64,000 bases of DNA from Patescibacteria group bacterium (GCA_030549845.1 JAUQQN010000001.1:133668-197667); one strand, 5' to 3'; shown: positions 1,536 to 29,917, numbered from the stretch's first letter. Numbers and translations: made by a program. Notes: generated by a model from the letters alone, not told the origin.

Positions 1536-3342
1536 AAGTTTACTACTTACTTTTTTAATATTTTTGAGTTTTGTCATCTTTTCTTCTTATTTGTCTTACA
1601 AAAATATAAAAACTATTACTTTATCAAAATTTAAAGAACTTATTGAAAAAGGGGAGATTATTTCTCTTCATATTTATGACAATGCTATTTTAATTGAAAC
1701 TAAAAATAAAGAATACTTAAGGATCAATAAAGAAAGCAACTTAACTTTTTGGCAGTTACTTAAAGACCTAAATATACCCTATGAAAAAACTGAGAATATT
1801 AATGTTTCTGTACAAAATAAATCTGCTCAAGAACTTTTTGCAATGTTAGCTATTAATTTGCTACCTGCTTTGCTTATTGTAGGGATTTTTATCTATATGT
1901 TCTCTCAAGCTCAAAAAGGAGCTGGGCAGATATTCACTTTTTCCAAATCTTCTGTTAAAATGCATGACCCAAGAAAAGAAAGAATTACATTTAATGATGT
2001 TGCCGGCCTTAAGGAAGCTAAAGAAGAATTAAAAGAAGTAATTGACTTTTTAAAAAGCCCTCAAAAATTCTTAAACCTTGGAGCAAGGGTACCAAAAGGA
2101 GTTTTACTTGTAGGGCCACCAGGTACAGGAAAAACACTATTAGCAAAAGCAACAGCTTGTGAGGCTGGAGTTCCTTTTTTCTATATCTCAGGCTCTGAAT
2201 TTATAGAGCTTTTTGTAGGAGTAGGAGCAAGTAGAATTAGGGATGCTTTCTCTGTTGCAAAAAGATTCGCACCCTCAATTTTATTTATAGATGAAATAGA
2301 TTCAATTGGAAGAATGAGAGGCATAGGTCTTACTGGAGCACATGAAGAACGGGAGCAAACTTTAAATCAATTATTAGCAGAAATGGATGGTTTTGAAAAA
2401 GACATTCCGTTGGTTGTTATTGCAGCAACAAATAGGCCAGATGTTTTAGATCCTGCTCTTTTAAGACCTGGAAGGTTTGATAGGAAAATATATTTAGATT
2501 TACCAACATTGTCGGAAAGAGAAGAAATCTTGAAAATTCACTTAAAGAATAAAAAAGTAGGAAATATAAATCTTAAAGAAATAGCTGAAAGAACTCCTGG
2601 ATTTTCAGGCGCAGATCTTGCAAATTTGTGTAATGAAGCAGCTATTTTAGCAGCAAGGAAAAATAAAACTCAAATAGAACAACAAGAATTATTAGAAGCA
2701 ATAGAAAAAGTTTTACTAGGGCCAGAAAGAAAATCTAAAGTTTATTCCAAAAAAGAAAAATTAATTGCTGCATATCATGAAAGTGGACACGCAATAGTAG
2801 CTCATTATCTACCGCACTCATCACCAGTTCAAAAAATTTCAATTATAGCAAGAGCAAAAGCAGGTGGTTATACGCTTAAAACTCCTCTTGAGGAAAGATC
2901 TTTTTTATTTAAAAAAGAATTTTTAGATGAAATATCTGCATTACTTGGTGGTTACGCAGCAGAACTTCTAGTATTTAATGATATATCAACCGGCGCAAGC
3001 TCTGACTTGAGAGTGGCTACAGATTTAGCAAGAGAACTAGTTACCACATACGGAATGTCTGAAGAATTTGGGCCTATAAGTTTAGGTAGAAAACAAGAAA
3101 TTATTTATGGAATTAAAGAAACTATAATTGAAAAAGATTATTCTGAAAAAACTGCAGAAAAAATTGATGAAGAAGTACAAAAGATTTTAAAAACAGCCTT
3201 AGAAAGAGCTAAAAAGGTTTTAGAAATGAAAAAAGAAAAATTAGATAAGCTTGCTAAAGCCTTAGTTAGAAAAGAAGTTATAGAAAGAAAACAATTTGAA
3301 AGAATATTAGGAGAACCCAAGGGCTCTTTAAAAGAAATTTAA
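1510..3342 (+). CDS. ftsH: ATP-dependent zinc metalloprotease FtsH
   Basis: N-terminal TM helices, AAA+ Walker [14 protein letters not shown], second region of homology, zinc motif HESGHAIV; 610 aa. Confidence 0.92.
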
Positions 3343-14503: not shown

Positions 14504-15793
14504 TTAATCTCTAAAAACAAATTCCAAAATTTCGTTCTGGCCTGGATCTGGACACCAATTAAGGGAATAAATACCTACTTCATTATCACCAACTGCTCTT
14601 CCATCAGAATAAACTCCATCAGTAATATAGTTACAATTAAATGGCCATGCTAAATGCTCTATAGTGCCATTATTATCTGTACCTCTGCTTGCTGTGCCGC
14701 CCTCCTTCCCACTAATCCAATTACCTGTTGCCGGGTTATATTTAATGTGAGGTATGATAGCTGCTTTATTAAACGAGCCTTTCCATATTTCATAATGACT
14801 TACTGTACAACCATCTTCATCGCCACAAAGTTCATGAAAGGCTGACATATCAAGTGGAATCGTAGTTTTAGTAAGTAATTTATGTCTTCTTACATAACTT
14901 ACTAATTTATTATTAACATATTTGTAGATATCTTCAGCTCCTTCAATTTTTTTAGTGTTTTTTGTAAGATTACTTGGAAGACTAGGAACAGTAAATACTT
15001 GGTCAGGGTTAGTATTTGGATCAGCTAAAGGAACATCTACTTGCATCCACCAATTTCTGTTACAGCCATAGTTATTCCCTAAAAATTGTCTTCCGGTTAA
15101 CCTCACGTCATTAGGTGTATTCCTATAAATTGCCCAAGGAAGGCCTAACCTACCTCCACCTCCATATCCTTTGCCTCCTGTTGCTCCAGTTATTACTACT
15201 GGTTCATCTTGAGCTACTTTGTCCCAATCCCACTCTATTATTAAGAAACTTTTAGTATCATCAAAGTAATAAGGTCCGCAGCTCCATTCTCCACCACACC
15301 TAAAATTAATATACCAATTTCCTCCCTCGCTATTGTCTAAATCAATATGAAAGCCAGACCCTCCTCCATTTAAATTAGTAAATCTTATCTGCCCTTTATT
15401 TCCTACTTTTTTATAAATATATAACCCAAACTCCTCGGCACATATAGGGCCATTAACATTGAATATAGCTCTATTTAAACCTCTCACAACAGTGTAATTT
15501 CCTCCACCTGATTTTTGACTATCTACATACTCTTTTGTTGCAACTTGTTCTGGCGGTGAGTTTTCAGAAGGAGTTTGAGTAAAAAGAGGAGCTAGTTCAA
15601 ATTGATTAGTTCTACCAGCAATTTTTTTCAAAAACTTAAATCCTTCGTTTGCTGTTTTAAATACTGTGTATTTTTGTTGGGTTTGTTGTGCTTTGATTTG
15701 AGGAAGTGGGATTGTTAATATAAGTAGGGTTAAGAAAGAAAGTAAGATTCCTGTAAAGATTCCTATAAGTATTTGCTTTTTATTGTTTTGCAT
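14504..15793 (-). CDS. secreted/surface hypothetical protein (N-terminal signal anchor, Gly/Trp/Cys-rich)
   Basis: Hydrophobic N-terminus MQNNKKQILIGIFTGILLSFLTLLILTIPLPQIKAQ; no known domain; AGTTATCCACAA motif lies 62 nt upstream. Confidence 0.45.
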   Translation of the reverse strand: MQNNKKQILIGIFTGILLSFLTLLILTIPLPQIKAQQTQQKYTVFKTANEGFKFLKKIAGRTNQFELAPLFTQTPSENSPPEQVATKEYVDSQKSGGGNYTVVRGLNRAIFNVNGPICAEEFGLYIYKKVGNKGQIRFTNLNGGGSGFHIDLDNSEGGNWYINFRCGGEWSCGPYYFDDTKSFLIIEWDWDKVAQDEPVVITGATGGKGYGGGGRLGLPWAIYRNTPNDVRLTGRQFLGNNYGCNRNWWMQVDVPLADPNTNPDQVFTVPSLPSNLTKNTKKIEGAEDIYKYVNNKLVSYVRRHKLLTKTTIPLDMSAFHELCGDEDGCTVSHYEIWKGSFNKAAIIPHIKYNPATGNWISGKEGGTASRGTDNNGTIEHLAWPFNCNYITDGVYSDGRAVGDNEVGIYSLNWCPDPGQNEILEFVFRD

Positions 15794-18919: not shown

Positions 18920-19258
18920 TTAAATTTTCGTTGTTAATCTTATATCAAAAATTCTATCTATACTTATTAAACTCGGCCCAACAGAAATTAAAATTATAAA
19001 ATAAGCTATTAAAAGAAGTTTGACCAAATCTATTCTTTTTTCTTTAATTATTAGTACTAAATTTGCTAAAATCCAAAATAGAGAAATCAAAGAAGTCAAA
19101 AAGCCTGTTGCTATCATAAAACTTGATATAAAATAAATTAAGCTTTTCAATTTATTTTCTTTAAATTTATTTAAACCAAAATTAAAATATACATATCCCA
19201 CAATTAAACGAGATAAAAAAATTCCTAGAAAATCAAAAGCCCACAAAAATTGTATCAT
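18920..19258 (-). CDS. small membrane protein, DoxX-like
   Basis: 112 aa, LSRLIVGYVYFNFGLNKF resembles the DoxX LRIxLGxxFxxxGxxK motif. Confidence 0.4.
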   Translation of the reverse strand: MIQFLWAFDFLGIFLSRLIVGYVYFNFGLNKFKENKLKSLIYFISSFMIATGFLTSLISLFWILANLVLIIKEKRIDLVKLLLIAYFIILISVGPSLISIDRIFDIRLTTKI

Positions 19259-20291
19259 GGAGAAAGCTTACTTTAACGTAATAAATCAAATTTTCAAGCC
19301 TTACCAAGCTTCTATACTTAAATTATATCAAAAATTTAGAAGTTTTGAAAAAGTTTACGACTATTTAAAGAGAAATAACAAATTAAAAGAAATAGATATA
19401 GAAAAAGAATATGAAAAAGTAAAAAAATTAGACATAGAAGTGGTTACATTAAGCGAAAATGGGTATCCGGAGGTTTTAAAAAATATTGATAGTCCTCCGC
19501 TTGGTTTTTATGCATTAGGAAATTTAAAAATTTTAAAAGAGGAAACCTTATTTGTAGCAATTGTTGGAACAAGAAAGGCAAGCAATTATGGAAAGGAAAC
19601 ATCTTTTAGATTTTCTAAGGGTTTATCAAATTTAGGAGTCATTATTGTAAGTGGATTAGCTTATGGAATAGATGAGTATGCTCATAAAGGCGCAGTTGAT
19701 GTAGGGTCTAAAACAATTGCAGTATTAGGAGAAGGAATTGATTTGGTATTAAATTCTCCAAAAAGAAAATTAGTTGAGAAAATTTTGGAAAATGACGGTT
19801 TAATAATATCTGAATATTCTTTATCCACACCTGCTATGCCTTATCATTTTCCTTTAAGAAATAGAATAATTGCTGGATTGAGTAATGCAGTATTGGTAAT
19901 TGAAGCACCAATAGATTCTGGAGCACTTATTACAGCAAATTATGCTTTAAAGTATGGGAGGGAGATTTTTGTTGTCCCTGGTGAAATAACTAATAAAAAT
20001 TTTGAAGGAAGCCATAATTTAATTAAGCAAGGAGCAAAACTTGTAACCTCTATTGAAGATATCTTAGTTGAGTTTGGAATTGATTATAAAGAAAAAAACA
20101 AAGTTAAAAAATTGAAGTTATCACCAAGAGAAGAAATTATTATTGAATCTTTACAAGTTAAAGAAAAGACAATAGAAGAATTAAGTAAAGAAACAAATTT
20201 CCCTATTCAAGATTTATTGGTCTTATTAACTCATATGGAAATAAAAGGCTTAATAAAAAACAAAGAGGGTAAGTTTTATTTGAATTTGTAA
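19257..20291 (+). CDS. dprA: DNA-processing protein A (natural transformation, ssDNA protection)
   Basis: Rossmann-like DprA core (VGTRKAS..., GLAYGIDEYAHKGA, VVPGEI), C-terminal winged-helix-like tail; 344 aa. Confidence 0.85.
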   Translation: MEKAYFNVINQIFKPYQASILKLYQKFRSFEKVYDYLKRNNKLKEIDIEKEYEKVKKLDIEVVTLSENGYPEVLKNIDSPPLGFYALGNLKILKEETLFVAIVGTRKASNYGKETSFRFSKGLSNLGVIIVSGLAYGIDEYAHKGAVDVGSKTIAVLGEGIDLVLNSPKRKLVEKILENDGLIISEYSLSTPAMPYHFPLRNRIIAGLSNAVLVIEAPIDSGALITANYALKYGREIFVVPGEITNKNFEGSHNLIKQGAKLVTSIEDILVEFGIDYKEKNKVKKLKLSPREEIIIESLQVKEKTIEELSKETNFPIQDLLVLLTHMEIKGLIKNKEGKFYLNL

Positions 20292-20313
20292 TTGCAAAAA
20301 TTTGGAGTATAAT
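20286..20313 (+). promoter_or_regulatory. sigma-70-type promoter TTGTAA-16-TATAAT driving the downstream small RNA
   Basis: TTGTAA at 20286..20291, 16-nt spacer, TATAAT at 20308..20313, immediately after the dprA stop codon. Confidence 0.45.
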
Positions 20314-20320
20314 TTATTTA

Positions 20321-20471
20321 AGAACACTAGGAAGGGCTGCCGAGTTCGGAGACCTCCGGGGAGGTGACGGGCCCCCGGAGAAAGGCAGCCCTTCCTATGT
20401 TATATATAGAGGGAGGCATGGGATTTTATATCTTATTTTAATTCTTCCCCTGCCTCCCTTTTTATTTTTTC
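20321..20471 (+). ncRNA. candidate small structured RNA, identity unresolved (SRP/4.5S-like is one possibility)
   Basis: Sharply GC-rich region: a 12-bp perfect outer stem (20330..20341 / 20384..20395) encloses an 8-bp inner stem (CTCCGGGG/CCCCGGAG). A second hairpin AGGGAGGCATGGG...CCCCTGCCTCCCT (20410..20459) followed by a T-tract (20460..20471) acts as terminator. Weak similarity of CCGGAGAAAGGCAGCC to the SRP domain IV consensus CCGGAAGGAAGCAGCC. Confidence 0.35.
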
Positions 20472-20667
20472 TTAATTCTATTTCTTATTATGGTAGCCAA
20501 AATTCAAAACCTCACAAGCTCGCCTTGAATCATTAAATAACAAATCAAGAAGACCTAAAAGATTAGGACAATCCAAAATCAATCCTCTAAAACAACCTCA
20601 ATCTGAATTTTCGTAATCTGATTACGAAAACTACGAAAACTAATAATTTTTCTTTTAGGTCCATCTA

Positions 20668-20695
20668 TTGACAAAAAAATAAAATTTGTTAAAAT
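20668..20695 (+). promoter_or_regulatory. near-consensus sigma-70 promoter TTGACA-16-TAAAAT for the lipoprotein gene
   Basis: TTGACA 20668..20673, 16-nt spacer, TAAAAT 20690..20695; strong SD AGGAGGTG at 20713..20720 lies 7 nt before the ATG. Confidence 0.55.
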
Positions 20696-20727
20696 TAGAG
20701 CGGAAATCTAGAAGGAGGTGTTGGGTA

Positions 20728-21054
20728 ATGAGACGTTTATTTTTATTTTTAATTTTCGCAACGGCGTTTGTCGGTGGCTGCGGAGGGGGACATAAGCCCC
20801 CCTCCGTTGAGACGTTGCCTCCGGCTCCAACCACAAAGGTGGAGTCGGGGCCTATTGTGGGCTGGTGGTGGGTAACCATCACCAGCCATACGACCCCTTC
20901 CCGGATAGAAGTTATCCGGGAAGGGGTAACATTGTTTAATTTTTTAGAGACCCGGGAGGTCAAAATCGACCTCCCGGAGGGTAATTACCTCATCCGGGTG
21001 ATATACCCGGATGGGGGCTCCTGGGAGGGAGAGCTGACTCTCCCTCCCAAATAG
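20728..21054 (+). CDS. small GC-rich lipoprotein (108 aa; lipobox FVGGC)
   Basis: ATG at 20728 after AGGAGGTG; signal peptide MRRLFLFLIFATAFVGG|C; mature part is beta-strand-like. The annotated ORF start at 20686 is upstream of the RBS-supported ATG. Mature-region GC is far above the genome background. Confidence 0.6.
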   Translation: MRRLFLFLIFATAFVGGCGGGHKPPSVETLPPAPTTKVESGPIVGWWWVTITSHTTPSRIEVIREGVTLFNFLETREVKIDLPEGNYLIRVIYPDGGSWEGELTLPPK

Positions 21055-21066
21055 TTTTTTCCACAG

Positions 21067-21092
21067 CCCCACCCTTTCGGGTGGGGTTTTTT
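21067..21092 (+). terminator. rho-independent terminator (CCCCACCC-TTTC-GGGTGGGG + T6)
   Basis: Perfect 8-bp GC stem, 4-nt loop, TTTTTT tract, 12 nt after the lipoprotein stop codon. Confidence 0.75.
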
Positions 21093-21113
21093 ATTCCACT
21101 TTTATTTGACTTA

Positions 21114-21143
21114 AAACAAATAAATCCGTACGGAACTATTTGT
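21114..21143. repeat. palindromic element with TTCCGTACGGAA core, copy 1
   Basis: AAACAAATAAATCCGTACGGAACTATTTGT; near-identical to 27942..27975; imperfect hairpin; 39 nt downstream of the ileS stop codon. Confidence 0.5.
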
Positions 21144-21181
21144 ATAAGTAATTTTTATTTTGTTAGATTTTGAGAAAGGAA

Positions 21182-24100
21182 TTATTCTATCCAAATATTA
21201 ACTTTTCCAAAATTTTCATATTCGAATTCCCTTTCCAATTTAAATTTTTTAGAAACTCCAAATTTAAGGTTGCTTATATTTGTTTCTTTTTTAATTCTTA
21301 ATAGATTTTTTGAAATAATGTTTTTTAGGTTTTTAGGCAATAACATGGAAACATTTATAGGAGTTATAGGGATTAATCCTAAATCTTGTCTTAAATCTTG
21401 AATATATCTTATAAAATCATTTACTATTCCTTCTTCTTTAAGCTCTGGTGTTATTTCTTTATTAAGCCAAACATAAATAGGAGAGTCTGCAAATAAATAG
21501 TTTTCTTTATTTTTAGGCTCTCCAATTATTACTTTTTTAACATTTACTTCTTCTTTGATAAGTTCCAAATATTCTTCTTCTATTTTTTCTCCTAAATAAA
21601 CTTCTTTTAAGGGTTGCCTTACTTTTATTCCATTATTTTTTCTTAGCATCAAAATTTCTGATGTTATTTCTCTTACTTTTTTCATTTCTTTAAGTATTTC
21701 TTTTTCTTTTGTTGACAAATCTTTAGGGGGTAAAACTTTTTCTAAATGAACACTTATTTCTACCTTTTTTCTATCTTTCATTTCATTTTTTATCTCATGA
21801 TAAAGAAACTCACTAAAGAAAGGAGTTATTGGAGCAGAAATTTTTGCTATTTCAAAAAGATATTCTTCTAACTTCATCATAGCGATTTGTATTTCATTTT
21901 CATTTTTAGGTCTTTGGAACCTTCTTCTGCTCCTTCTTAGCCACCAATGAGATAAATCTTGAACTAAATTTACCAGTTCTCTACTTGCTTTTGTTGGATT
22001 GAAGTTATACAAAGATTCATAAACTATTTTATAAGCTTCTTTTAATCTCACATCAAACCATTTATCAATTATTTCTTTACTTTGATAATTTCTAATTTTT
22101 AATTTCTTTGGTTTTCTGTACATTCTATAAAAGTTAAAAATATTCAAAAGCAGATCAAAGTAATTTCTCTTTAGGTTTATAAGCTCTTCTTCTATGAATC
22201 TTTTATTATCAGCAGATTCACTTACATAAACAAAGTAAAACCTTAAAAGATCAGCTCCGTATTTTTCGATGGCCTCCATAGGATCTACAACGTTTCCCAA
22301 TGACTTGGACATTTTTCTTCCCTCCTTATCTAAAACTAAGCCCAAAGAGACTACATTTTTGTAAGTTTCCATTTTCTTTATCAAATACCCTATAACTAAC
22401 AAAGTATAAAACCAACCCCTTGTTTGATCTATTCCTTCCACAATAAAATCTATAGGGAATAAAATTCCTTCATCTATTTCTTTTTTATTTTCAAATGGAT
22501 AATGAAAAGATGCAAAAGGAACACACCCTGAGTCAAACCAAATATCTGCTAAGTCTTCTATTCGTTCTTTTAATCCTCCACATTTACATTTCCATTTAAA
22601 TTTATCCACATAAGGCCTATGAATATTTATTTCATTATTTTCATCTCTTGGCAAAATTAAAAGTTCAATTTCTTTATATTCCCCAGGTTCGAAGTTAAAT
22701 TCTTCATTTTCTGCTGTTTGTTTTTTAGAAAGCCCTTGCATTTCTCCACAAAGAGCCCATAAAGGATCCTGATGTGATACTATTAAGATTGTTTTTCCTT
22801 CATACTTTTCTTCCAAATCTAAAATTACTGATATCATTCTTTTTCTTACATCATCCAAACTTTCACCATTTTCTGGGGCTTTGAAATACTGATCATATTG
22901 ATCTTCATAAAGCTTATCATATTCTTTTATTGATTTACCGTTTAATACACCAAAATCTATTTCTCTTAACCTTAGATCTACAATAATCGGAACTCGTAAA
23001 ATATTAGAAAGTATTTCTGCAGTTTGCTTCGTTCTTAAAAGTGGTGAAGTTACAATAAAGTCGATATTCTTCTTCGCTAACTCTTTAGCCACCTTCATTA
23101 TTTGTTTTTCTCCATTCGAGGTCAATGGGTTAAAGAAAACTTCAGGGTAGGAAGATAGTAATTCTTTTACATTACTTATGGCTTCTCCATGCCTTAAAAG
23201 AATGTATTTATTTTTTGATTTGAAATGTTGAGCAAGCTCCTTTAAACTCCCTATAACTTCTATTGAACCACAGCTATTACATTTCCATATAGGAAGAGGT
23301 ATACCCCAAACCCTTGTTCTTGATAGATTCCAATCTTTTCCTTCCTTAAGCCATTCATAAAATCTACCACTTCCAATTTCTTTTGGATACCAATTTATTT
23401 TTTCGTTAATTTTTAATAGCTTATCTTTAAATTTAGATACTTTAATCACCCAATTTTTTGTTGAATAATAAATAAGCGGTGTTTTACATCTCCAACAATG
23501 GGGATAATCGTGTTCATATCCAGTTAAATTTGCATAGAGGATTAAATTTCTTTCTTTTAAGTCTTCAACAATATATGGATCTGCATCTTTAAAAAATAAA
23601 TTATTTATTTTACTACTAATAAAAGCTGGTTCATCAAAATTAAAAATTCCTGACTCGTTTATTGGATTTATTAGAGGAAGATTATATTTTTTACTTAATT
23701 CAAAATCCTCTTCACCAAATGCAGGAGCTATATGAACTATTCCTGTACCTTCGTCTTCTTTTACGAATTCTGCTAAATAAACTTTAAATGCATTTTCATA
23801 ATTTTCTATATTTTCTGGAGGATAAAGAGGTTCATATTCTAAACCTTCTAGTTCTTTGCCTTTTATTTTTTTAATCTCTATTCCTTTAAATCCCTGAGGA
23901 AGCCTTAAAGATATTAGAATTTCTTCATTTAAGTCAAATACTTTATATTCATACTCTGGATGTATTGCTAAAGCTATATTTGAAATTAACGTCCATGGGG
24001 TTGTTGTCCAAACTAAGAAATAAATTTGTTTTTCAGAAAATTCTTCTAAAAAGTGTGGAATGTTTTTCAACTTAAACTTAACATAAATATCAGGATCTAA

Positions 24101-24688
24101 AACTTTTTTATAAGCATCAACTTGTCCTACTTCGGCTTGAGAAAGGACGGTTTCGCATCTTGGGCAATAAGGAAAAACTTTATATTCTTCTTTTAAGTAC
24201 CCTTGATCATAAATCTTTTTAATAATCCACCAACAGGATTCCATGTAAAATGGATCATAAGTGATATAAGCATTTTTATGATCAATCCAAAATCCCATCA
24301 TTTCATCCATTTTCTCCCATTCATTTTTATATTTCATAACAAGCTCTTTACATTTTGCATTAAATTTATCAATTCCATATGAAAATATATCTTTTTTTGT
24401 TTTAAATCCTAAAAATTTTTCAGTGGCAACTTCTATAGGAAGTCCGTGCGTATCCCATCCTGCCCTTCTTTCAGCATATTCACCAATCATTGTTCTAAAT
24501 CTTAAAATAATATCTTTATAAACTCGGGTAAGAAAATGCCCGATGTGAGGTTTATCATTAGCATACGGAGGACCTTCAACAAAAACAAATCTTTTATTTT
24601 TTATATTTCTTTTTAAGCTTTCTTTAAAAATATTATTTGATTTCCAAAAATTTATTATTTTCTTTTCCAATTCACTTAGATTTAGCAT
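21182..24688 (-). CDS. ileS: isoleucine--tRNA ligase with an inserted histidine-phosphatase (PGAM-like) domain
   Basis: HIGH-region PPYANDKPHIGH, GWDTHGLPIE, WGIPLPIW, WFDSG, KMSKS (RKMSKSLGNVVDP). A ~195-aa insertion (aa ~495-690) carries LLRHGEAISN and VSHQD motifs of the histidine phosphatase superfamily; it sits between CNSCGS and CKCGG. 1168 aa. Confidence 0.85.
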   Translation of the reverse strand: MLNLSELEKKIINFWKSNNIFKESLKRNIKNKRFVFVEGPPYANDKPHIGHFLTRVYKDIILRFRTMIGEYAERRAGWDTHGLPIEVATEKFLGFKTKKDIFSYGIDKFNAKCKELVMKYKNEWEKMDEMMGFWIDHKNAYITYDPFYMESCWWIIKKIYDQGYLKEEYKVFPYCPRCETVLSQAEVGQVDAYKKVLDPDIYVKFKLKNIPHFLEEFSEKQIYFLVWTTTPWTLISNIALAIHPEYEYKVFDLNEEILISLRLPQGFKGIEIKKIKGKELEGLEYEPLYPPENIENYENAFKVYLAEFVKEDEGTGIVHIAPAFGEEDFELSKKYNLPLINPINESGIFNFDEPAFISSKINNLFFKDADPYIVEDLKERNLILYANLTGYEHDYPHCWRCKTPLIYYSTKNWVIKVSKFKDKLLKINEKINWYPKEIGSGRFYEWLKEGKDWNLSRTRVWGIPLPIWKCNSCGSIEVIGSLKELAQHFKSKNKYILLRHGEAISNVKELLSSYPEVFFNPLTSNGEKQIMKVAKELAKKNIDFIVTSPLLRTKQTAEILSNILRVPIIVDLRLREIDFGVLNGKSIKEYDKLYEDQYDQYFKAPENGESLDDVRKRMISVILDLEEKYEGKTILIVSHQDPLWALCGEMQGLSKKQTAENEEFNFEPGEYKEIELLILPRDENNEINIHRPYVDKFKWKCKCGGLKERIEDLADIWFDSGCVPFASFHYPFENKKEIDEGILFPIDFIVEGIDQTRGWFYTLLVIGYLIKKMETYKNVVSLGLVLDKEGRKMSKSLGNVVDPMEAIEKYGADLLRFYFVYVSESADNKRFIEEELINLKRNYFDLLLNIFNFYRMYRKPKKLKIRNYQSKEIIDKWFDVRLKEAYKIVYESLYNFNPTKASRELVNLVQDLSHWWLRRSRRRFQRPKNENEIQIAMMKLEEYLFEIAKISAPITPFFSEFLYHEIKNEMKDRKKVEISVHLEKVLPPKDLSTKEKEILKEMKKVREITSEILMLRKNNGIKVRQPLKEVYLGEKIEEEYLELIKEEVNVKKVIIGEPKNKENYLFADSPIYVWLNKEITPELKEEGIVNDFIRYIQDLRQDLGLIPITPINVSMLLPKNLKNIISKNLLRIKKETNISNLKFGVSKKFKLEREFEYENFGKVNIWIE

Positions 24689-26372: not shown

Positions 26373-27581
26373 ATGAATAAAAAAGCGCAAATAGAAGACA
26401 TCCTCTTATTTTTTGCTTTGGTAATAATAATATTTTCTGCTTTTATATATTATTTTTATTTTAAAACAGGAAAGGTACCAGTCTTAAAACCAAGAAAAGA
26501 AATAAAGCCCGCTGAAAAAAGCGTAATTCCTCCTGGTATTTTTTTCCCTAAAAAAGAGAAGGTTCCCTTTTTAAATATTAAGAAAGTTTCCGAAGCAAGT
26601 GTTTTTAAAATCAATTTAGGAACCACTACAAAACCAAATAAAAATCTAGAAACTTCAATAAAACATAAATATAAAAACTTAAATAATTTAGAAACTAATG
26701 AAGTTGAGTTTGAATTAGAGGGTAAAAATTTAAAAAATCCTAATGAAAAAATCCATTTTGCTTATTTATTAATACCTATTGAAAATAACTGGAAGGTTCT
26801 AAAATCCAATAAATTAAAAATAATCCTTCCTAAAAAACCACAAATTTACATTCTTTTAGTGAGTTCTTTAAATGAAAAAAATGAATATGACCCCAGTCCT
26901 TATGCTCTTATTTTTTCTGTGAATGTTTCTAAATATTTTAATGATATTAAAATTACGTCTCTTCAAAATAGAAACATTATAAGAATCAAAAATTTTTCGC
27001 AAAATACTATTAACATAACAAATTGGAAAATAGTGTCTTCATTAGGAAATTTTGTGATACCACAAGGAGTTGAATTTGTTGAACCTTCTGGTAATTATAT
27101 AAAAAAAGATATCATATTAAATCCTGGCGAGGAAGCAAAAATTATAGCATCATCTTCTCCATTAGGTTTTAGTTTTAAAATTAACAAGTGCTTTGCTTAT
27201 TTTTTAAAATCAAAGCCGTCAATTAAAAAATTTCTAGATAACATCCCAAATATTTGCGACAAATTCTCAAAAGAAGAGCTTTTAGAATTAAGAAAAGGAA
27301 AGTATAGCTTAAATTGCATTTTAGTTCTGGAAAAAGCTGGATGCACTGGTATACAAGAAAAAGATTATACTCTAATAAAAAATGATATATCCTGTTTGAA
27401 TTTAATAAATGCCAGATTTAATTACCAAAGTTGCTATGAAAAAAATAAAAATAATATTGATTTCATTCAAAAAAATTGGCATATATTTATCCCCACAAAT
27501 TTCTTTTACTATCCAAGGTATGAAGAAATTAGGTTATTGGATGAGAATGGTCTTTTAGTTAATAAATATATTATTTATTGA
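26373..27581 (+). CDS. hypothetical membrane-anchored extracytoplasmic protein
   Basis: N-terminal TM (ILLFFALVIIIFSAFIYYFYF), 402 aa, several Cys in the C-terminal half, no motif. Confidence 0.4.
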   Translation: MNKKAQIEDILLFFALVIIIFSAFIYYFYFKTGKVPVLKPRKEIKPAEKSVIPPGIFFPKKEKVPFLNIKKVSEASVFKINLGTTTKPNKNLETSIKHKYKNLNNLETNEVEFELEGKNLKNPNEKIHFAYLLIPIENNWKVLKSNKLKIILPKKPQIYILLVSSLNEKNEYDPSPYALIFSVNVSKYFNDIKITSLQNRNIIRIKNFSQNTINITNWKIVSSLGNFVIPQGVEFVEPSGNYIKKDIILNPGEEAKIIASSSPLGFSFKINKCFAYFLKSKPSIKKFLDNIPNICDKFSKEELLELRKGKYSLNCILVLEKAGCTGIQEKDYTLIKNDISCLNLINARFNYQSCYEKNKNNIDFIQKNWHIFIPTNFFYYPRYEEIRLLDENGLLVNKYIIY

Positions 27582-29026: not shown

Positions 29027-29917
29027 CTATTCACGAATCTGTCCAGGTTCACATCGAAGACCTTGGCCAGAGCATACAGAAGTACTAGTATTCACCCATC
29101 TGTTTCGAGTTTCATCATAATATTGGCAAAAACCGAGAAAGCATCTAAGTCTAAGAGGAGGACTTACCGTGATAGTAGAAGTATTTGAAACTTGTTGAGT
29201 ATTTGATTTTAAATATAATGAATAAGTGCCTGTAGGAACTCCATTTAAACTTAAAGTTCTTGTTACAAAAATATTATTAATATTATTGATAAAGTCATCA
29301 GATCGAATTGAAGGAAAGAGTGTAAAACCAGTTGAGTATGGAGAAATGCTAGGATCCGCCGGAACTGGTAAATTTGAAGGACAATAAGCCTTATTGCTAT
29401 AAATTGTATAAGTTATAGTAGAAGTAGATTGTGTAGTAGTTGATTCAGGTTCAAGTTTATAATACCAGCCTCTATTACTTGCTGGTACTACAAAAAAGCT
29501 TGCTGAAGCAGATTGACTGTCTTTTTTATAAGTAATAGTTACTGTTGAATATTGTGATCCTGGATTTGTAAATACTCCTTCTATTATGCAATCCGTACTA
29601 GAGACATATCCTCCTATTTGATCACATTTTCCAGAAGTTGAATATTGATTTATAGTTAAACTTAGATTTCCACCGCTCCCACCCACTAATTTTATCCTAA
29701 AAAGAGTTCCGCTTGCTACAGTAGATTTAATATTTGTTTTATAAATATCATCTGAGATTGCATTTTCTATTTCAATCCCTTGATCATTAGGAGAAGAAAG
29801 TGCATAAATTTCTATACCAATGCCATTTGCAGCTTTAGCAAAATAAAAATTTCTATAAATTAAGAAAGTAGTTATCAAAAGTAAAATTCCTAAAATGATA
29901 TAAATTTTACTTTTCAT
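29027..29917 (-). CDS. secreted Ser/Thr-rich hypothetical protein with C-terminal Cys cluster
   Basis: Signal peptide MKSKIYIILGILLLITTFLIYRNFYFAKA; AGTTATCCACAA motif 42 nt upstream. Confidence 0.45.
   Translation of the reverse strand: MKSKIYIILGILLLITTFLIYRNFYFAKAANGIGIEIYALSSPNDQGIEIENAISDDIYKTNIKSTVASGTLFRIKLVGGSGGNLSLTINQYSTSGKCDQIGGYVSSTDCIIEGVFTNPGSQYSTVTITYKKDSQSASASFFVVPASNRGWYYKLEPESTTTQSTSTITYTIYSNKAYCPSNLPVPADPSISPYSTGFTLFPSIRSDDFINNINNIFVTRTLSLNGVPTGTYSLYLKSNTQQVSNTSTITVSPPLRLRCFLGFCQYYDETRNRWVNTSTSVCSGQGLRCEPGQIRE

What the first reader, a model, noticed from the sequence alone, without database searches (positions are those of the whole stretch)
20668..21092. Strongly GC-rich, textbook-expression small lipoprotein cassette whose mRNA carries three perfect palindromic hairpins
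The cassette has a consensus promoter, an AGGAGGTG Shine-Dalgarno (few other genes here have an obvious SD), a lipobox signal peptide, and a perfect GC terminator. The mature coding region is far more GC-rich than any neighbouring gene. It contains three perfect inverted repeats inside the reading frame: CCCCTTCCCGGATA-GAAGT-TATCCGGGAAGGGG (encodes TPSRIEVIREGV), CCGGGAGGTC-AAAATC-GACCTCCCGG (TREVKIDLPE), and ATCCGGGT-GATAT-ACCCGGAT (IRVIYPD). Possible explanations are a horizontally acquired gene, a highly expressed, structured, stable mRNA, or a GC-rich repeat family that has been exapted into coding sequence.
Basis: seen in the sequence. Interest (0 to 1): 0.65.

Follow-up and report, generated by a model that had tools for sequence, protein, structure and literature searches.

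The report
Hairpin-packed, hypervariable small lipoprotein gene
A tiny surface-lipoprotein gene in a very AT-rich ultrasmall (CPR) bacterium is written almost entirely in GC-rich, hairpin-forming codons and differs greatly between otherwise near-identical strains, so one short gene appears to be shaped at once by its protein fold, by nucleic-acid structure and by rapid allele turnover.

Summary
Window 20668-21094 is a complete expression cassette: an 11/12 promoter, an AGGAGGTG Shine-Dalgarno unique in the window, a 108-aa lipoprotein ORF and a terminator. Its mature coding region folds into seven hairpins, not three (up to 15 perfect pairs; z = -13).

It is a true gene. AlphaFold2 gives a confident seven-strand Ig-like sandwich, the lipobox is conserved, all indels are in frame and dN/dS is 0.31.

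GC3 is 0.65 against 0.17 ± 0.02 for the window's ORFs. The GC-richness sits in the stems; the linkers are host-like. In all five known alleles the mRNA is 4-10 SD more stable than synonymous-codon permutations, yet individual hairpins turn over.

The cassette is a lineage-specific insert between dprA and ileS, which abut in 11 relatives. It is hypervariable: flanks are 93-99% identical while the ORF is 50-72% identical, and divergence is bounded by the -10 box and the terminator.

My best reading is a strongly expressed, polymorphic surface lipoprotein whose sense mRNA is selected for dense hairpins, with old alleles shuffled by recombination. A DNA-level palindrome mechanism is not excluded. 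Foreign origin, a repeat family, a spurious ORF and a DGR are rejected. There are no expression data, and only four independent alleles exist.

The parts
20292..21181 (.). Lineage-specific interval between the convergent genes dprA (19257-20291, +) and ileS (21182-24688, -). In 11 relatives these two genes abut.
   Evidence: tblastn of the flanking proteins on loci L003-L006 and L017-L024 gives a dprA-to-ileS gap of about 6-20 bp and no GC island. L005 has a 270-bp remnant.
20668..20695 (+). Sigma-70-type promoter: TTGACA, 16 nt, TAAAAT, with an extended -10 TG. The spacer contains an A7 tract (A8 in L001).
   Evidence: Promoter scan scores 11/12, the best in 19800-21800. It is conserved in L001. 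Similar promoters occur in L014, L015 and L005.
20713..20720 (+). Shine-Dalgarno AGGAGGTG, 7 nt upstream of the ATG.
   Evidence: Sequence. None of the 57 ORFs >=120 aa scanned has AGGAGG upstream. L014 and L015 have GGAGGTGATC.
20728..21054 (+). ORF of 108 codons plus stop. It encodes a small secreted lipoprotein with a seven-strand Ig-like beta-sandwich domain.
   Evidence: Translation. AF2 pLDDT 92-97 over residues 35-105. Generic Ig-like Foldseek hits. Four homologous alleles. dN/dS 0.31 and only in-frame indels.
20728..20781 (+). Lipoprotein signal peptide (MRR, hydrophobic core, lipobox V-G-G-C). The Cys18 codon is at 20779-20781. This part is AT-rich and weakly structured.
   Evidence: Sequence. 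G-C-G-G-G is invariant in all five sequences. GC 0.37 against 0.57 for the mature part. P(unpaired) 0.44.
20700..21066 (+). Hypervariable segment, running from just after the -10 box to the foot of the terminator.
   Evidence: Window vs L001: 12-22 differences per 50 nt inside, 0-2 per 50 nt downstream, and 1-5 per 50 nt in dprA. ORF dS 0.74 and dN 0.23, against dS 0.03-0.15 and dN 0.004-0.016 in the flanking genes.
20780..20807 (+). Hairpin 1: CGGAGGGGG / CCCCCTCCG, 9 perfect pairs plus one G.U. It encodes the CGGGHKPPS tether.
   Evidence: The same hairpin is 11 perfect pairs in L001.
20817..20851 (+). Hairpin 2 (imperfect: one bulge, G.U pairs). It encodes LPPAPTTKVESG.
   Evidence: In L001 the sequence is largely replaced but again forms a 12-pair helix.
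20856..20892 (+). Hairpin 3: GGCTGGTGGTGG-gtaa-CCATCACCAGCC, 12 pairs with one G.U. It encloses beta-strand 2 (WWWVTITS).
20893..20927 (+). Hairpin 4: 15 perfect pairs, loop GAAGT. It encloses beta-strand 3 (SRIEVI).
   Evidence: The core is conserved in L001 and L013, with a T-A to C-G double change that is synonymous on both arms.
20952..20977 (+). Hairpin 5: 10 perfect pairs, loop AAAATC. It encloses beta-strand 5 (EVKIDL).
20988..21016 (+). Hairpin 6: 9 perfect pairs, or 13 with G.U pairs, loop GATAT. It covers the end of beta-strand 6 and the YPDG turn.
   Evidence: In L001 it is a 14-pair perfect palindrome whose outer pairs are made from different bases.
21022..21049 (+). Hairpin 7: 12 perfect pairs, loop CTGA. 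It encloses beta-strand 7 and ends 2 nt before the stop codon.
   Evidence: L001 keeps a 12-pair stem despite a 6-nt insertion.
21065..21094 (+). Intrinsic terminator: CCCCACCC-tttc-GGGTGGGG followed by TTTTTTATT.
   Evidence: Terminator scan. Conserved in L001 and L013. It marks the 3' boundary of the variable segment.
20327..20465 (+). Upstream GC-rich element: a long hairpin (20327-20397) followed by a terminator-like hairpin and T-run (20410-20465). Whether it belongs to the cassette is uncertain. It may be the dprA 3'UTR and terminator, or a small RNA.
   Evidence: Fold z = -6.5. Conserved in L001. A related element sharing GACGGGCCCCC occurs in L005. No Rfam family.

Best explanation
This is a real, lineage-restricted gene for a small secreted lipoprotein. 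It has a proline-rich tether and a seven-strand Ig-like beta-sandwich, and it lies in a CPR/Patescibacteria genome. It is driven by the strongest promoter-like site and the only full Shine-Dalgarno in the window.

The mature coding region is written in codons that are rare for this genome, so that about 73% of it pairs into a chain of short GC-rich hairpins ending in the terminator. I infer that these hairpins act in the sense mRNA. They would make it a compact, nuclease-resistant, long-lived message, because RNases of AT-rich bacteria cut single-stranded AU-rich RNA. They may also slow elongation during export. The effect would be that a few transcripts yield much protein, as with E. coli lpp mRNA and with designed mRNAs that have structured coding sequences.

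The protein is under diversifying pressure, as expected for an exposed surface protein of an episymbiont facing hosts or phages. Very different old alleles are kept in the population and swapped by homologous recombination, using the constant promoter/dprA side and terminator/ileS side as anchors. As the protein sequence changes, hairpins are lost and rebuilt elsewhere, so hairpin density is conserved but the structure is not.

Shown here: the gene is real, the structure exceeds coding constraints, GC is tied to the stems, the cassette is hypervariable with sharp boundaries, and it was gained once.

Inferred: high expression, mRNA stabilisation, the selective agent, and recombination as the swapping mechanism.
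For: Real gene:
- AF2 gives pLDDT 92-97 and seven strands from a 5-sequence alignment, with Ig-like fold matches.
- The lipobox G-C-G-G-G is invariant.
- dN/dS is 0.31 and every length difference is a multiple of 3 (L001 vs L013).

Expression signals: promoter 11/12 with an extended -10 TG, and a terminator. The SD is unique among the 57 ORFs scanned.

Structure beyond coding needs:
- The native mature CDS is more stable than synonymous-codon permutations: z = -9.8, -9.6, -8.2, -4.0 and -4.5, with 0 of 160-200 permutations as stable.
- z = -13.4 against dinucleotide shuffles.

GC serves the stems:
- Paired GC is 0.62-0.68 against 0.27-0.42 unpaired. Paired GC3 is 0.64-0.76 against 0.33-0.39.
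- Host codon usage would give 0.40 GC; 0.57 is observed.

Sense-RNA level:
- Inside long stems, G.T (a G.U pair in the mRNA) outnumbers A.C 9 to 1.
- Sense z is slightly more negative than antisense z in 4 of 5 alleles.
- Third-position divergence is lower in stems than in linkers (0.29 vs 0.57).
- In the window and L001 the initiation region is more open than the body (P(unpaired) 0.41-0.44 vs 0.24-0.25).

Hypervariable slot:
- ORF nucleotide identity is 72% (window vs L001) and 50% (L014 vs L015), with flanks 93-99% identical.
- The boundaries lie at the -10 box and the terminator.
- L014's protein is closer to the window-lineage alleles (48-52%) than to L015 (37%), although it shares L015's background.
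- Each allele pair co-occurs in one study or metagenome.

Precedents:
- lpp mRNA half-life is 11.5 min against 1.3 min on average, and lpp has an AT-rich strong promoter (PMC10260701).
- A structured CDS extends functional mRNA half-life (PMC6883848).
- ospC-type lipoprotein polymorphism is maintained by recombination, not by elevated mutation (PMC11389397).
Against: - There is no expression, half-life or proteomic evidence of any kind.
- The stems use the rarest codons of this genome (CGG is 1% of Arg codons). That runs against simple codon-optimality logic for abundant proteins.
- The SD is predicted to be partly paired (P(unpaired) 0.16-0.45). The open-start, structured-body contrast is absent in L014 and L015.
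- Column-wise covariation between the window and L001 is no better than slid-partner controls: 3-5 double changes against 1-6, and 24-27 pairs broken.
- The codon register of helices is random (7 of 26 in the 3<->3 register). The excess structure is nearly strand-symmetric. Both fit a DNA-level origin equally well.
- Uninterrupted 10-15-bp Watson-Crick stems are unusual for selected RNA structures.
- Only four independent alleles exist, so every statistic rests on a very small sample.
- The G.T:A.C test has n = 10, and the sense strand is somewhat G+T-rich.
Confidence: 0.45

Rival explanations
1. DNA-level palindromes. The inverted repeats matter, or simply arise, in DNA. Hairpin or cruciform-prone palindromes stall replication or repair synthesis and provoke template switching and recombination. 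That rewrites blocks of the gene and at the same time regenerates perfect arms. The palindromes would then be the engine, or the scar, of the locus's hypervariability, and the mRNA structure would be a side effect.
For: - Stems are perfect Watson-Crick runs of 10-15 bp.
- Hairpins are rebuilt from different bases. Hairpin 6 of L001 has 14 perfect pairs with new outer pairs, and hairpin 2 is replaced.
- The codon register is random, and the excess structure is nearly equal on both strands.
- Divergence is confined to the cassette, with dS raised 5-25-fold.
- Template switching is documented to create and repair perfect stems in one event (PMC8794818) and to homogenise inverted-repeat arms inside coding genes (PMC8604942).
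- The Borrelia vls loci are a precedent: GC-rich lipoprotein loci (49% against 28.6%) whose inverted repeats aid gene conversion (PMC11499132).
Against: - G.T:A.C is 9:1 inside stems, an asymmetry a purely DNA-level process does not predict.
- No loop (spacer) inversions are seen between alleles, and the loops are conserved.
- The near-identical alleles L001 and L013 differ only by two slippage indels and one point change.
- Very different alleles sit on near-identical backgrounds, and one is closer to the other lineage's alleles. This fits import of old alleles better than in-place mutagenesis.
- There is no donor or silent copy in 64 kb.
- GC skew is low (0.04-0.15), unlike vls (0.52).
Confidence: 0.2
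2. Regulatory RNA structure. The hairpins and the many CCUCC segments in the body sequester the very strong SD or start region. Translation is then switched on only under some condition (temperature, a helicase, an sRNA, or the upstream GC-rich element). Alternatively, the transcript doubles as a regulatory RNA.
For: - The SD-to-ATG region is predicted to be mostly paired in 3 of 4 alleles (P(unpaired) 0.16-0.32).
- The transcript contains several CCUCC/GGAGG blocks.
- A conserved structured element lies just upstream.
Against: - No specific SD-sequestering helix is conserved between alleles.
- In the window's MFE fold the SD pairs only weakly with a U-rich stretch.
- The hairpins are local and self-contained, and they do not need the 5' end.
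- No Rfam family matches.
- This was not tested further.
Confidence: 0.1
3. Foreign gene. The GC-rich mature domain was acquired horizontally from a GC-rich donor and fused to a native promoter and signal peptide.
For: - The composition and codon usage are extreme outliers (GC3 z = 20).
- The interval is an insertion relative to 11 relatives.
Against: - GC is high only at paired positions, and the linkers are host-like.
- No homologue exists outside this clade among 1.84 billion representatives or 5.8 billion clusters.
- The cassette is inherited vertically across lineages with 74% DprA identity without losing its GC-richness.
- No mobile-element genes lie nearby.
- Foreign origin would not explain structure beyond synonymous permutations.
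Confidence: 0.04
4. Exapted repeat family. GC-rich palindromic mobile repeats (REP, MITE or Rickettsia-palindromic-element-like) inserted in frame and became coding sequence.
For: - The palindromes share CCGG and GGGAGG motifs.
- The pattern CCCGGRW has 9 matches in 64 kb, 6 of them in this gene.
Against: - No second copy of any hairpin exists in the 64-kb window, in 30 related loci or in viral contigs.
- Each hairpin is unique.
- The hairpins coincide with the beta-strands of a compact fold rather than forming insert-like extra segments.
- The rest of the genome could not be searched.
Confidence: 0.04
5. Non-coding structured RNA. The ORF is an accident of GC-rich sequence, which contains few stop codons.
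For: - A 102-aa ORF also runs on the opposite strand.
- GC islands in AT-rich genomes are usually RNA genes.
- The fold z-score is -13.
Against: - The AF2 model is confident.
- The signal peptide and lipobox are conserved in alleles only 31-43% identical to the window protein over the full length.
- All indels are in frame and dN/dS is 0.31.
- The SD is perfectly placed.
- No Rfam hit or tmRNA.
- The hairpins are not positionally conserved in distant alleles, as they would be in a functional ncRNA.
Confidence: 0.03

Closest known systems
E. coli Braun lipoprotein (lpp) gene and its unusually stable, highly structured mRNA
   Same: - Both are very small lipoprotein genes forming their own transcription unit, with an AT-rich strong promoter, a strong RBS and an intrinsic terminator.
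- The lpp mRNA is exceptionally long-lived (11.5 min against 1.3 min on average; PMC10260701, citing Hirashima 1973). From my own knowledge, Nakamura et al. 1980 drew it as a chain of stem-loops.
   Different: - There is no sequence or fold relationship. Lpp is an alpha-helical coiled coil, Pfam gives no hit here, and this protein is a beta-sandwich.
- The lpp hairpins are ordinary imperfect stems in a genome of normal GC content.
- lpp uses optimal codons and is highly conserved, not hypervariable.
Structured-CDS rule for mRNA output (Mauger et al. 2019, PMC6883848)
   Same: An unstructured 5'UTR and first ~30 nt followed by a highly structured coding body increases protein yield through a longer functional half-life. 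The window and L001 alleles show this layout.
   Different: - The rule was established with synthetic mRNAs in human cells.
- It is not shown for bacteria with coupled transcription and translation.
- The layout is not evident in L014 and L015.
Borrelia ospC/dbpA-type polymorphic surface-lipoprotein loci
   Same: - Both are single-gene surface-lipoprotein loci where very different alleles sit in near-identical genomes.
- Both show gene-tree versus genome-tree conflicts.
- In Borrelia the variability is attributed to recombination plus diversifying selection rather than to a raised mutation rate (PMC11389397).
   Different: - OspC groups are 60-80% identical. Here alleles go down to 36-38% protein identity and 50% nucleotide identity on one background.
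- ospC has no special GC content or hairpin load.
- The fold is different.
Borrelia vls antigenic-variation locus
   Same: - It encodes a lipoprotein in a ~28% GC genome whose variable cassettes are ~49% GC.
- It has inverted repeats thought to help gene conversion (PMC11499132).
   Different: - vls needs an adjacent array of silent cassettes and has a strong GC skew (0.52).
- Here there is no silent copy in 64 kb, the skew is 0.04-0.15, and the palindromes lie inside the coding sequence rather than at a junction.
Template-switch (quasipalindrome) mutation creating and maintaining perfect hairpins
   Same: It explains perfect stems, multinucleotide 'compensatory' changes and homogenisation of inverted-repeat arms, including inside coding genes (PMC8794818, PMC8604942).
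   Different: - It is a general mutational process, not a gene system.
- No direct footprint (loop inversion, or one-arm copying with the other arm unchanged) could be shown here.
- It does not predict the G.T over A.C bias.
Rickettsia palindromic elements and other palindromic repeats inserted in ORFs (own knowledge: Ogata et al. 2000)
   Same: Palindromic, hairpin-forming DNA lying in frame inside protein-coding genes of an AT-rich reduced genome.
   Different: - RPEs are multicopy, 100-150 bp, and add extra surface segments to unrelated proteins.
- Here every hairpin is single-copy and encodes the core strands of the fold.
Diversity-generating retroelement (DGR) targets, common in CPR (own knowledge: Paul et al. 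2017)
   Same: Localised hypervariability in a surface or ligand-binding protein of a CPR bacterium.
   Different: - There is no reverse transcriptase nearby and no template repeat.
- The substitution spectrum is not adenine-specific.
- The whole ORF varies, not just a C-terminal variable repeat.

Membership tests
Bacterial lipoprotein (Lgt/LspA substrate) | N-terminal signal peptide with a positively charged n-region and a hydrophobic h-region | tested here: met
   MRR + LFLFLIFATAFV. All five sequences have the same architecture.
Bacterial lipoprotein (Lgt/LspA substrate) | Lipobox [LVI][ASTVI][GAS]-C with an invariant Cys at +1 of the mature protein | tested here: met
   V-G-G-C in the window; L-T-G-C, L-A-G-C and V-M-G-C in the others. 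G17 and C18 are invariant.
Bacterial lipoprotein (Lgt/LspA substrate) | The genome encodes Lgt and LspA, and the protein is lipidated | not tested
   Only 64 kb was available and the ten neighbours scanned are housekeeping genes. Lipidation needs experiment.
Ig-like beta-sandwich domain | Seven-strand two-sheet sandwich | tested here: met
   AF2 gives pLDDT 92-97 with strands 36-43, 46-53, 59-64, 67-73, 77-82, 85-92 and 98-105. Foldseek matches basigin, MG, FnIII and BIg domains at TM ~0.5 and E ~5e-3. The match is generic only; no Pfam family hits.
Braun lipoprotein Lpp family | Sequence homology to Lpp and an alpha-helical coiled-coil trimer | tested here: not met
   No Pfam hit at E <= 1, and the predicted fold is all-beta. 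It may work like lpp at the mRNA level but is not a member.
Known structured RNA families (Rfam 15), tmRNA, tRNA | Covariance-model score at or above the gathering threshold | tested here: not met
   Only two tRNAs elsewhere in the window reach threshold. The best sub-threshold hit at this locus is His_leader on the wrong strand, 39 bits against a threshold of 49, which is a generic hairpin match.
Conserved RNA secondary structure (classical covariation criterion) | Homologous base pairs maintained by compensatory double substitutions, above controls | tested here: not met
   3-5 double changes against 1-6 in slid controls, with 24-27 pairs broken. Hairpin positions differ in the distant alleles.
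Selected excess mRNA structure in a coding sequence | Native folding energy below synonymous-codon permutations that keep the protein and codon usage | tested here: met
   z = -9.8, -9.6, -8.2, -4.0 and -4.5, and 0 of 160-200 permutations reach the native energy.
Diversity-generating retroelement target | Nearby reverse transcriptase and a template repeat homologous to the variable region | tested here: not met
   No TR-like copy in 64 kb. Neighbours within ~9 kb are housekeeping genes. The rest of the genome was not searched.
Diversity-generating retroelement target | Adenine-specific substitutions | tested here: not met
   The spectrum is broad: 27 of 98 changes are from A, 27 from T, 26 from G and 18 from C.
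Cassette-based antigenic variation (vls/pilE type) | Silent donor cassettes homologous to the expressed gene | tested here: inconclusive
   None in the 64-kb window by blastn or tblastn. The remaining ~240 kb of the contig and the rest of the genome were not available.
Balanced allelic polymorphism with recombination (ospC type) | Highly divergent alleles on near-identical genomic backgrounds with sharp boundaries | tested here: met
   There are two independent strain pairs. Window vs L001: flanks 93-96%, ORF 72%. L014 vs L015: flanks 96-99%, ORF 50%.
Balanced allelic polymorphism with recombination (ospC type) | The allele tree conflicts with the genome tree, and alleles coexist in one population | tested here: inconclusive
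   L014's protein is closer to the window-lineage alleles (48-52%) than to L015 (37%), but nucleotide identities are all ~48-50% and therefore saturated. Each pair comes from one study or metagenome. There are only four alleles.
Multicopy palindromic repeats (REP/RPE/MITE) | Many dispersed copies of the same palindrome in the genome | tested here: not met
   No further copy in the window, in 30 loci or in viral contigs. The whole genome could not be tested.
Phase-variable promoter (homopolymer tract in the spacer) | Length-variable repeat tract altering the -35/-10 spacing | tested here: inconclusive
   A7 in the window against A8 in L001. That is one difference in a short tract of an AT-rich genome.

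The most novel reading that the evidence does not exclude
The palindromes are a built-in diversification device that needs no reverse transcriptase. Each beta-strand of a surface Ig-like protein is encoded by its own hairpin-prone palindrome. Hairpin-induced stalling during replication, or during transformation-associated repair next to dprA, triggers template switching and short-patch recombination. That rewrites strand-sized blocks and automatically regenerates perfect arms. The protein sequence then turns over very fast, while both the fold and the hairpin-rich, stable mRNA are preserved. A related possibility is that the protein was born from a hairpin-array RNA like the ORF-less promoter-hairpin-terminator unit seen in L005.
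Probability: 0.12. Interest if true: 0.85.

Novelty: new variant of a known kind. Interest (0 to 1): 0.6.

Why it matters
Protein-coding genes are usually thought to tolerate only weak, fuzzy mRNA structure. Here a natural gene has about three quarters of its mature coding sequence locked into 9-15-bp GC-rich stems. They are written against a genome-wide codon bias of 83% A/T at third positions, and the protein still folds into a confident Ig-like domain.

The family offers a compact natural experiment of about 400 nt with four very different alleles. It can be used to ask how protein fold, nucleic-acid structure and rapid diversification constrain one another. It can also be used to ask whether a structured coding sequence prolongs mRNA life in bacteria as it does for synthetic mRNAs.

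It also flags a candidate abundant, strain-specific surface protein in Paceibacter-like CPR bacteria, whose host-recognition and phage-receptor molecules are essentially unknown. If the palindromes themselves drive the variability, that would be a new kind of diversity generator.

Tried and rejected
1. Known RNA gene (RNase P, tmRNA, SRP, riboswitch). Rfam at gathering and at E <= 10, plus ARAGORN, gave nothing credible.

2. Spurious ORF. Rejected by AF2, conserved lipobox, in-frame indels and dN/dS.

3. Classical covariation. My first reading of the pairwise alignment by eye suggested many compensatory changes. The formal count with slid-partner controls did not support this, and I withdrew the claim.

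4. The idea that the hairpins are built through wobble positions. The codon register is random, 7 of 26.

5. Foreign GC-rich origin or region-wide biased gene conversion. GC is confined to the stems.

6. DGR. There is no template repeat, no A-bias and no RT nearby.

7. Silent cassettes or a repeat family. No copies were found.

8. Phage link. There are no protein or DNA matches in viral contigs.

9. Finding more alleles. A metagenome scan with the protein profile found none. A profile search of 5.8 billion clusters returned only the four known clusters. The DprA-anchored metagenome scan found 15 loci, and none of those that show the slot carries the cassette.

10. Open-initiation-region design. 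It is only partly supported.

11. The afdb50 fold library was unavailable.

12. A literature search for CPR hypervariable lipoproteins returned only irrelevant microbiome papers.
Full report
**1. The observation**

The window is 28% GC. One island at about 20700-21100 reaches 52-55% GC.
- A TTGACA-16-TAAAAT promoter with an extended -10 TG, scoring 11/12.
- AGGAGGTG, 7 nt before the ATG at 20728.
- A 108-codon ORF starting MRRLFLFLIFATAFVGG|C.
- A CCCCACCC-tttc-GGGTGGGG terminator with a T-run.

The three quoted palindromes are exact, but there are more. The transcript folds into seven consecutive hairpins inside the ORF plus the terminator. The MFE is -220.6 kcal/mol against -142.9 +/- 5.8 for dinucleotide shuffles (z = -13.4).

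A census of perfect hairpins (stem >=8 bp) across the 64 kb found eight whose stems are at least 50% GC. Six of them lie within these 300 bp. None of the 57 ORFs >=120 aa scanned has AGGAGG upstream.

**2. Is it an RNA gene or a protein gene?**

A GC island in an AT-rich genome usually marks a structured RNA, so I tested that first. Rfam found only two tRNAs elsewhere in the window. At permissive thresholds it found only generic hairpin look-alikes, the best being His_leader on the wrong strand at 39 bits against a threshold of 49. ARAGORN found no tmRNA.

The ORF behaves as a real gene:
- An exhaustive HMMER search of 1.84 billion representative proteins and two searches of 5.8 billion clusters found only four allele clusters, five sequences in all.
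- All five share a signal peptide, an invariant G-C-G-G-G lipobox, a proline-rich tether and the same pattern of beta-strands.
- AlphaFold2 with this five-sequence alignment gives pLDDT 92-97 over residues 35-105 and seven strands.
- Foldseek matches only generic Ig-like sandwiches at TM ~0.5.
- Between the window and its closest relative, every length difference is a multiple of three and dN/dS is 0.31.

**3. Context**

The host is a Paceibacter-like member of the CPR/Patescibacteria. The cassette lies between the convergent genes dprA and ileS, in a stretch of housekeeping genes (MreB, an aaRS, ClpP, GyrB, PPase, NusA, TsaD). No mobile-element or reverse-transcriptase genes are present.

In eleven relatives with 60-73% DprA identity, dprA and ileS abut and there is no GC island. 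The cassette-bearing lineages are the window, L001/L016, and L015 (74% DprA identity to the window). They form one clade in a DprA tree. This suggests a single gain followed by long vertical inheritance.

L005 keeps a similar promoter, a similar terminator and the upstream hairpin element, but has no ORF.

The same alleles were assembled independently in NCBI, Logan, ENA and JGI data, always in this slot. Contamination or chimerism is therefore excluded.

**4. Composition and structure exceed what the protein requires**

- GC3 of the mature region is 0.65, against 0.17 +/- 0.024 for 49 ORFs (z = 20).
- All four Arg codons are CGG, which makes up 1% of Arg codons elsewhere.
- Host codon usage would give 40% GC rather than the observed 57%.
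- After permuting synonymous codons, which keeps the protein and the gene's own codon usage, the native mature CDS is still far more stable: z = -9.8, -9.6, -8.2, -4.0 and -4.5 for the five alleles. No permutation reaches the native value.
- The GC-richness is tied to the stems. Paired positions are 62-68% GC and unpaired ones 27-42%. For third positions the figures are 0.64-0.76 against 0.33-0.39. One caveat is that folding algorithms prefer to pair GC-rich segments. Even so, the alternation of roughly 68% and 27% GC blocks is a property of the sequence itself.
- Five of the seven predicted beta-strands each lie inside one hairpin.

**5. What is conserved is hairpin density, not a structure**

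In the close group (window, L001, L013) the hairpins sit at homologous places. In L014 and L015 they are mostly elsewhere, and they are again long and perfect, for example GACGTGGAGGG-actaa-CCCTCCACGTC and ACGATGGGGATGA-aaaga-TCATCCCCATCGT.

By eye, the window/L001 alignment seemed full of compensatory changes. A formal count did not bear this out. There were 3-5 double changes against 1-6 in slid-partner controls, and 24-27 pairs were 'broken' because the stems are rebuilt in new registers. Stem cores are conserved as sequence: third-position divergence is 0.29 in stems against 0.57 in linkers.

The codon register of the helices is random, with 7 of 26 in the wobble-to-wobble register. The palindromes therefore involve amino-acid-determining positions, and the protein and the palindromes shape each other.

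**6. RNA level or DNA level?**

The excess structure is nearly the same on both strands, and G.U pairs make up 7-13% of pairs. That alone cannot decide the question.

Inside long stems, however, interruptions that remain G.U pairs in the sense RNA outnumber A.C interruptions 9 to 1. This becomes about 8 to 1 after removing one shared by descent. The sample is small and the sense strand is somewhat G+T-rich. This is modest evidence that pairing in the sense transcript is what is maintained.

The initiation region is more open than the body in the window and L001 (P(unpaired) 0.41-0.44 against 0.24-0.25) but not in L014 and L015. The SD is predicted to be partly paired.

**7. Hypervariability**

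| Comparison | Flanks | ORF |
|---|---|---|
| Window vs L001, nucleotide identity | 96-99% (flanking genes) | 73.5% |
| Window vs L001, dS | 0.03-0.15 | 0.74 |
| Window vs L001, dN | 0.004-0.016 | 0.23 |
| L014 vs L015, nucleotide identity | 96-99% | 50% |

- Divergence rises from about 2% to 25-45% exactly after the -10 box and falls back at the terminator stem.
- L014 and L015 come from a single metagenome. Their mature proteins are only 37% identical.
- L014's protein is closer to the window-lineage alleles (48-52%) than to L015.
- The substitution spectrum is not adenine-biased, and there is no template or silent copy in 64 kb. A DGR or a local cassette system is therefore excluded.
- The near-identical alleles L001 and L013 differ only by two slippage indels and one point change.

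Together this favours old alleles maintained by diversifying selection and exchanged by recombination through the constant flanks, as described for Borrelia ospC (PMC11389397). Mutagenesis limited to the transcription unit is not excluded.

**8. Interpretation**

The best-supported model has two parts:
- The gene encodes a strongly expressed, polymorphic surface lipoprotein.
- Its sense mRNA is selected for dense GC-rich hairpins, which act as a stabilising armour against single-strand-specific RNases and possibly as a brake on elongation.

The nearest functional analogies are the long-lived lpp mRNA (PMC10260701) and the structured-CDS rule for mRNA output (PMC6883848).

The main rival is a DNA-level palindrome process. 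Template switching is known to create and repair perfect stems (PMC8794818, PMC8604942). GC-rich lipoprotein loci with inverted repeats that promote gene conversion are known from the Borrelia vls system (PMC11499132). Such a process would explain the perfection of the stems, the random register and the strand symmetry. It would not explain the G.U bias or the allele pattern.

Foreign origin, an exapted repeat family and a non-coding RNA are each contradicted by direct tests.

**9. Limits**

There are no expression, stability or proteomic data. Only four independent alleles exist. Only 64 kb of the genome could be searched for donor copies, tRNAs or lipoprotein-processing genes. All the RNA structures are predictions.

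Noticed in passing
window 20327-20465 (+); L001 1499-1640; L005 ~3020-3100: A GC-rich structured element lies between the dprA stop codon and the cassette promoter. It is a long hairpin with an inner CCGGGG-aggtGACGGGC-CCCCGG stem-loop, followed by a terminator-like hairpin and a T-run. A TATAAT box sits at 20308-20313. The fold z-score is -6.5. It is conserved in L001, and a related element sharing GACGGGCCCCC is present in L005, which lacks the ORF. No Rfam family matches. It could be the dprA terminator and 3'UTR, or an undescribed small RNA.
   Followed up: partly
L005 2987-3255: This relative has a 270-bp dprA-ileS gap. It contains the upstream hairpin element, a TTGACA-17-TATAAT promoter and a ~85-nt GC-rich hairpin transcript ending in CCCCACC...GGTGGGGTTTTTT, which resembles the window's terminator. 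There is no ORF. It is either a remnant of the cassette after loss of the gene or a pre-gene state.
   Followed up: partly
window 20673-20680 vs L001 ~1697-1705: The homopolymer A tract in the promoter spacer differs between strains (A7 in the window, A8 in L001), which changes the -35/-10 spacing by one base. This is reminiscent of phase-variable lipoprotein promoters, but it is a single observation in an AT-rich genome.
   Followed up: no
window 20470-20650: An AT-rich ~150-bp segment between the upstream element and the promoter is absent from L001. It contains a perfect 10-bp AT-rich hairpin (TTTTCGTAAT-ctg-ATTACGAAAA, 20608-20630) and short direct repeats (CGAAAACTA).
   Followed up: no
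window 20893-20950 and 21022-21065: Hairpin 4 is followed within 5-20 nt by a T-rich run (TTGTTTAATTTTTT, which encodes the invariant F-x-F motif). Hairpin 7 is followed by AAATAGTTTTTT. Both were flagged as terminator-like by the pattern scan. Internal attenuation, or a tandem terminator at the 3' end, is possible.
   Followed up: no
window 21182-24688 (-): The isoleucyl-tRNA synthetase is 1168 aa long and carries a histidine-phosphatase (His_Phos_1) domain inserted between its catalytic segments, according to precomputed Pfam hits. The same length is seen in relatives L003-L006.
   Followed up: no
whole window: Shine-Dalgarno motifs are scarce in this genome. Of 57 ORFs >=120 aa, 0 have AGGAGG, 3 have a 5-mer and 15 have a 4-mer upstream of any candidate start. 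Translation initiation here is probably mostly SD-independent, which makes the cassette's 8-10-nt SD exceptional.
   Followed up: partly
P0005 (1149-aa protein from the representative library): A large repeat protein matches only the beta-hairpin motif GxYxIxVxYPDG of the lipoprotein, in six of its ~10 repeats (E = 9e-6). This hints that the small lipoprotein's fold is related to adhesin-type Ig-like repeats.
   Followed up: no
window 14507-15793 (-), 29030-29917 (-), 26373-27578 (+): Two sizeable ORFs (429 aa and 296 aa) have no Pfam match at E <= 1e-5. A 402-aa ORF has only a weak Lamin-tail-domain hit. All are uncharacterised CPR proteins in an otherwise housekeeping region.
   Followed up: no
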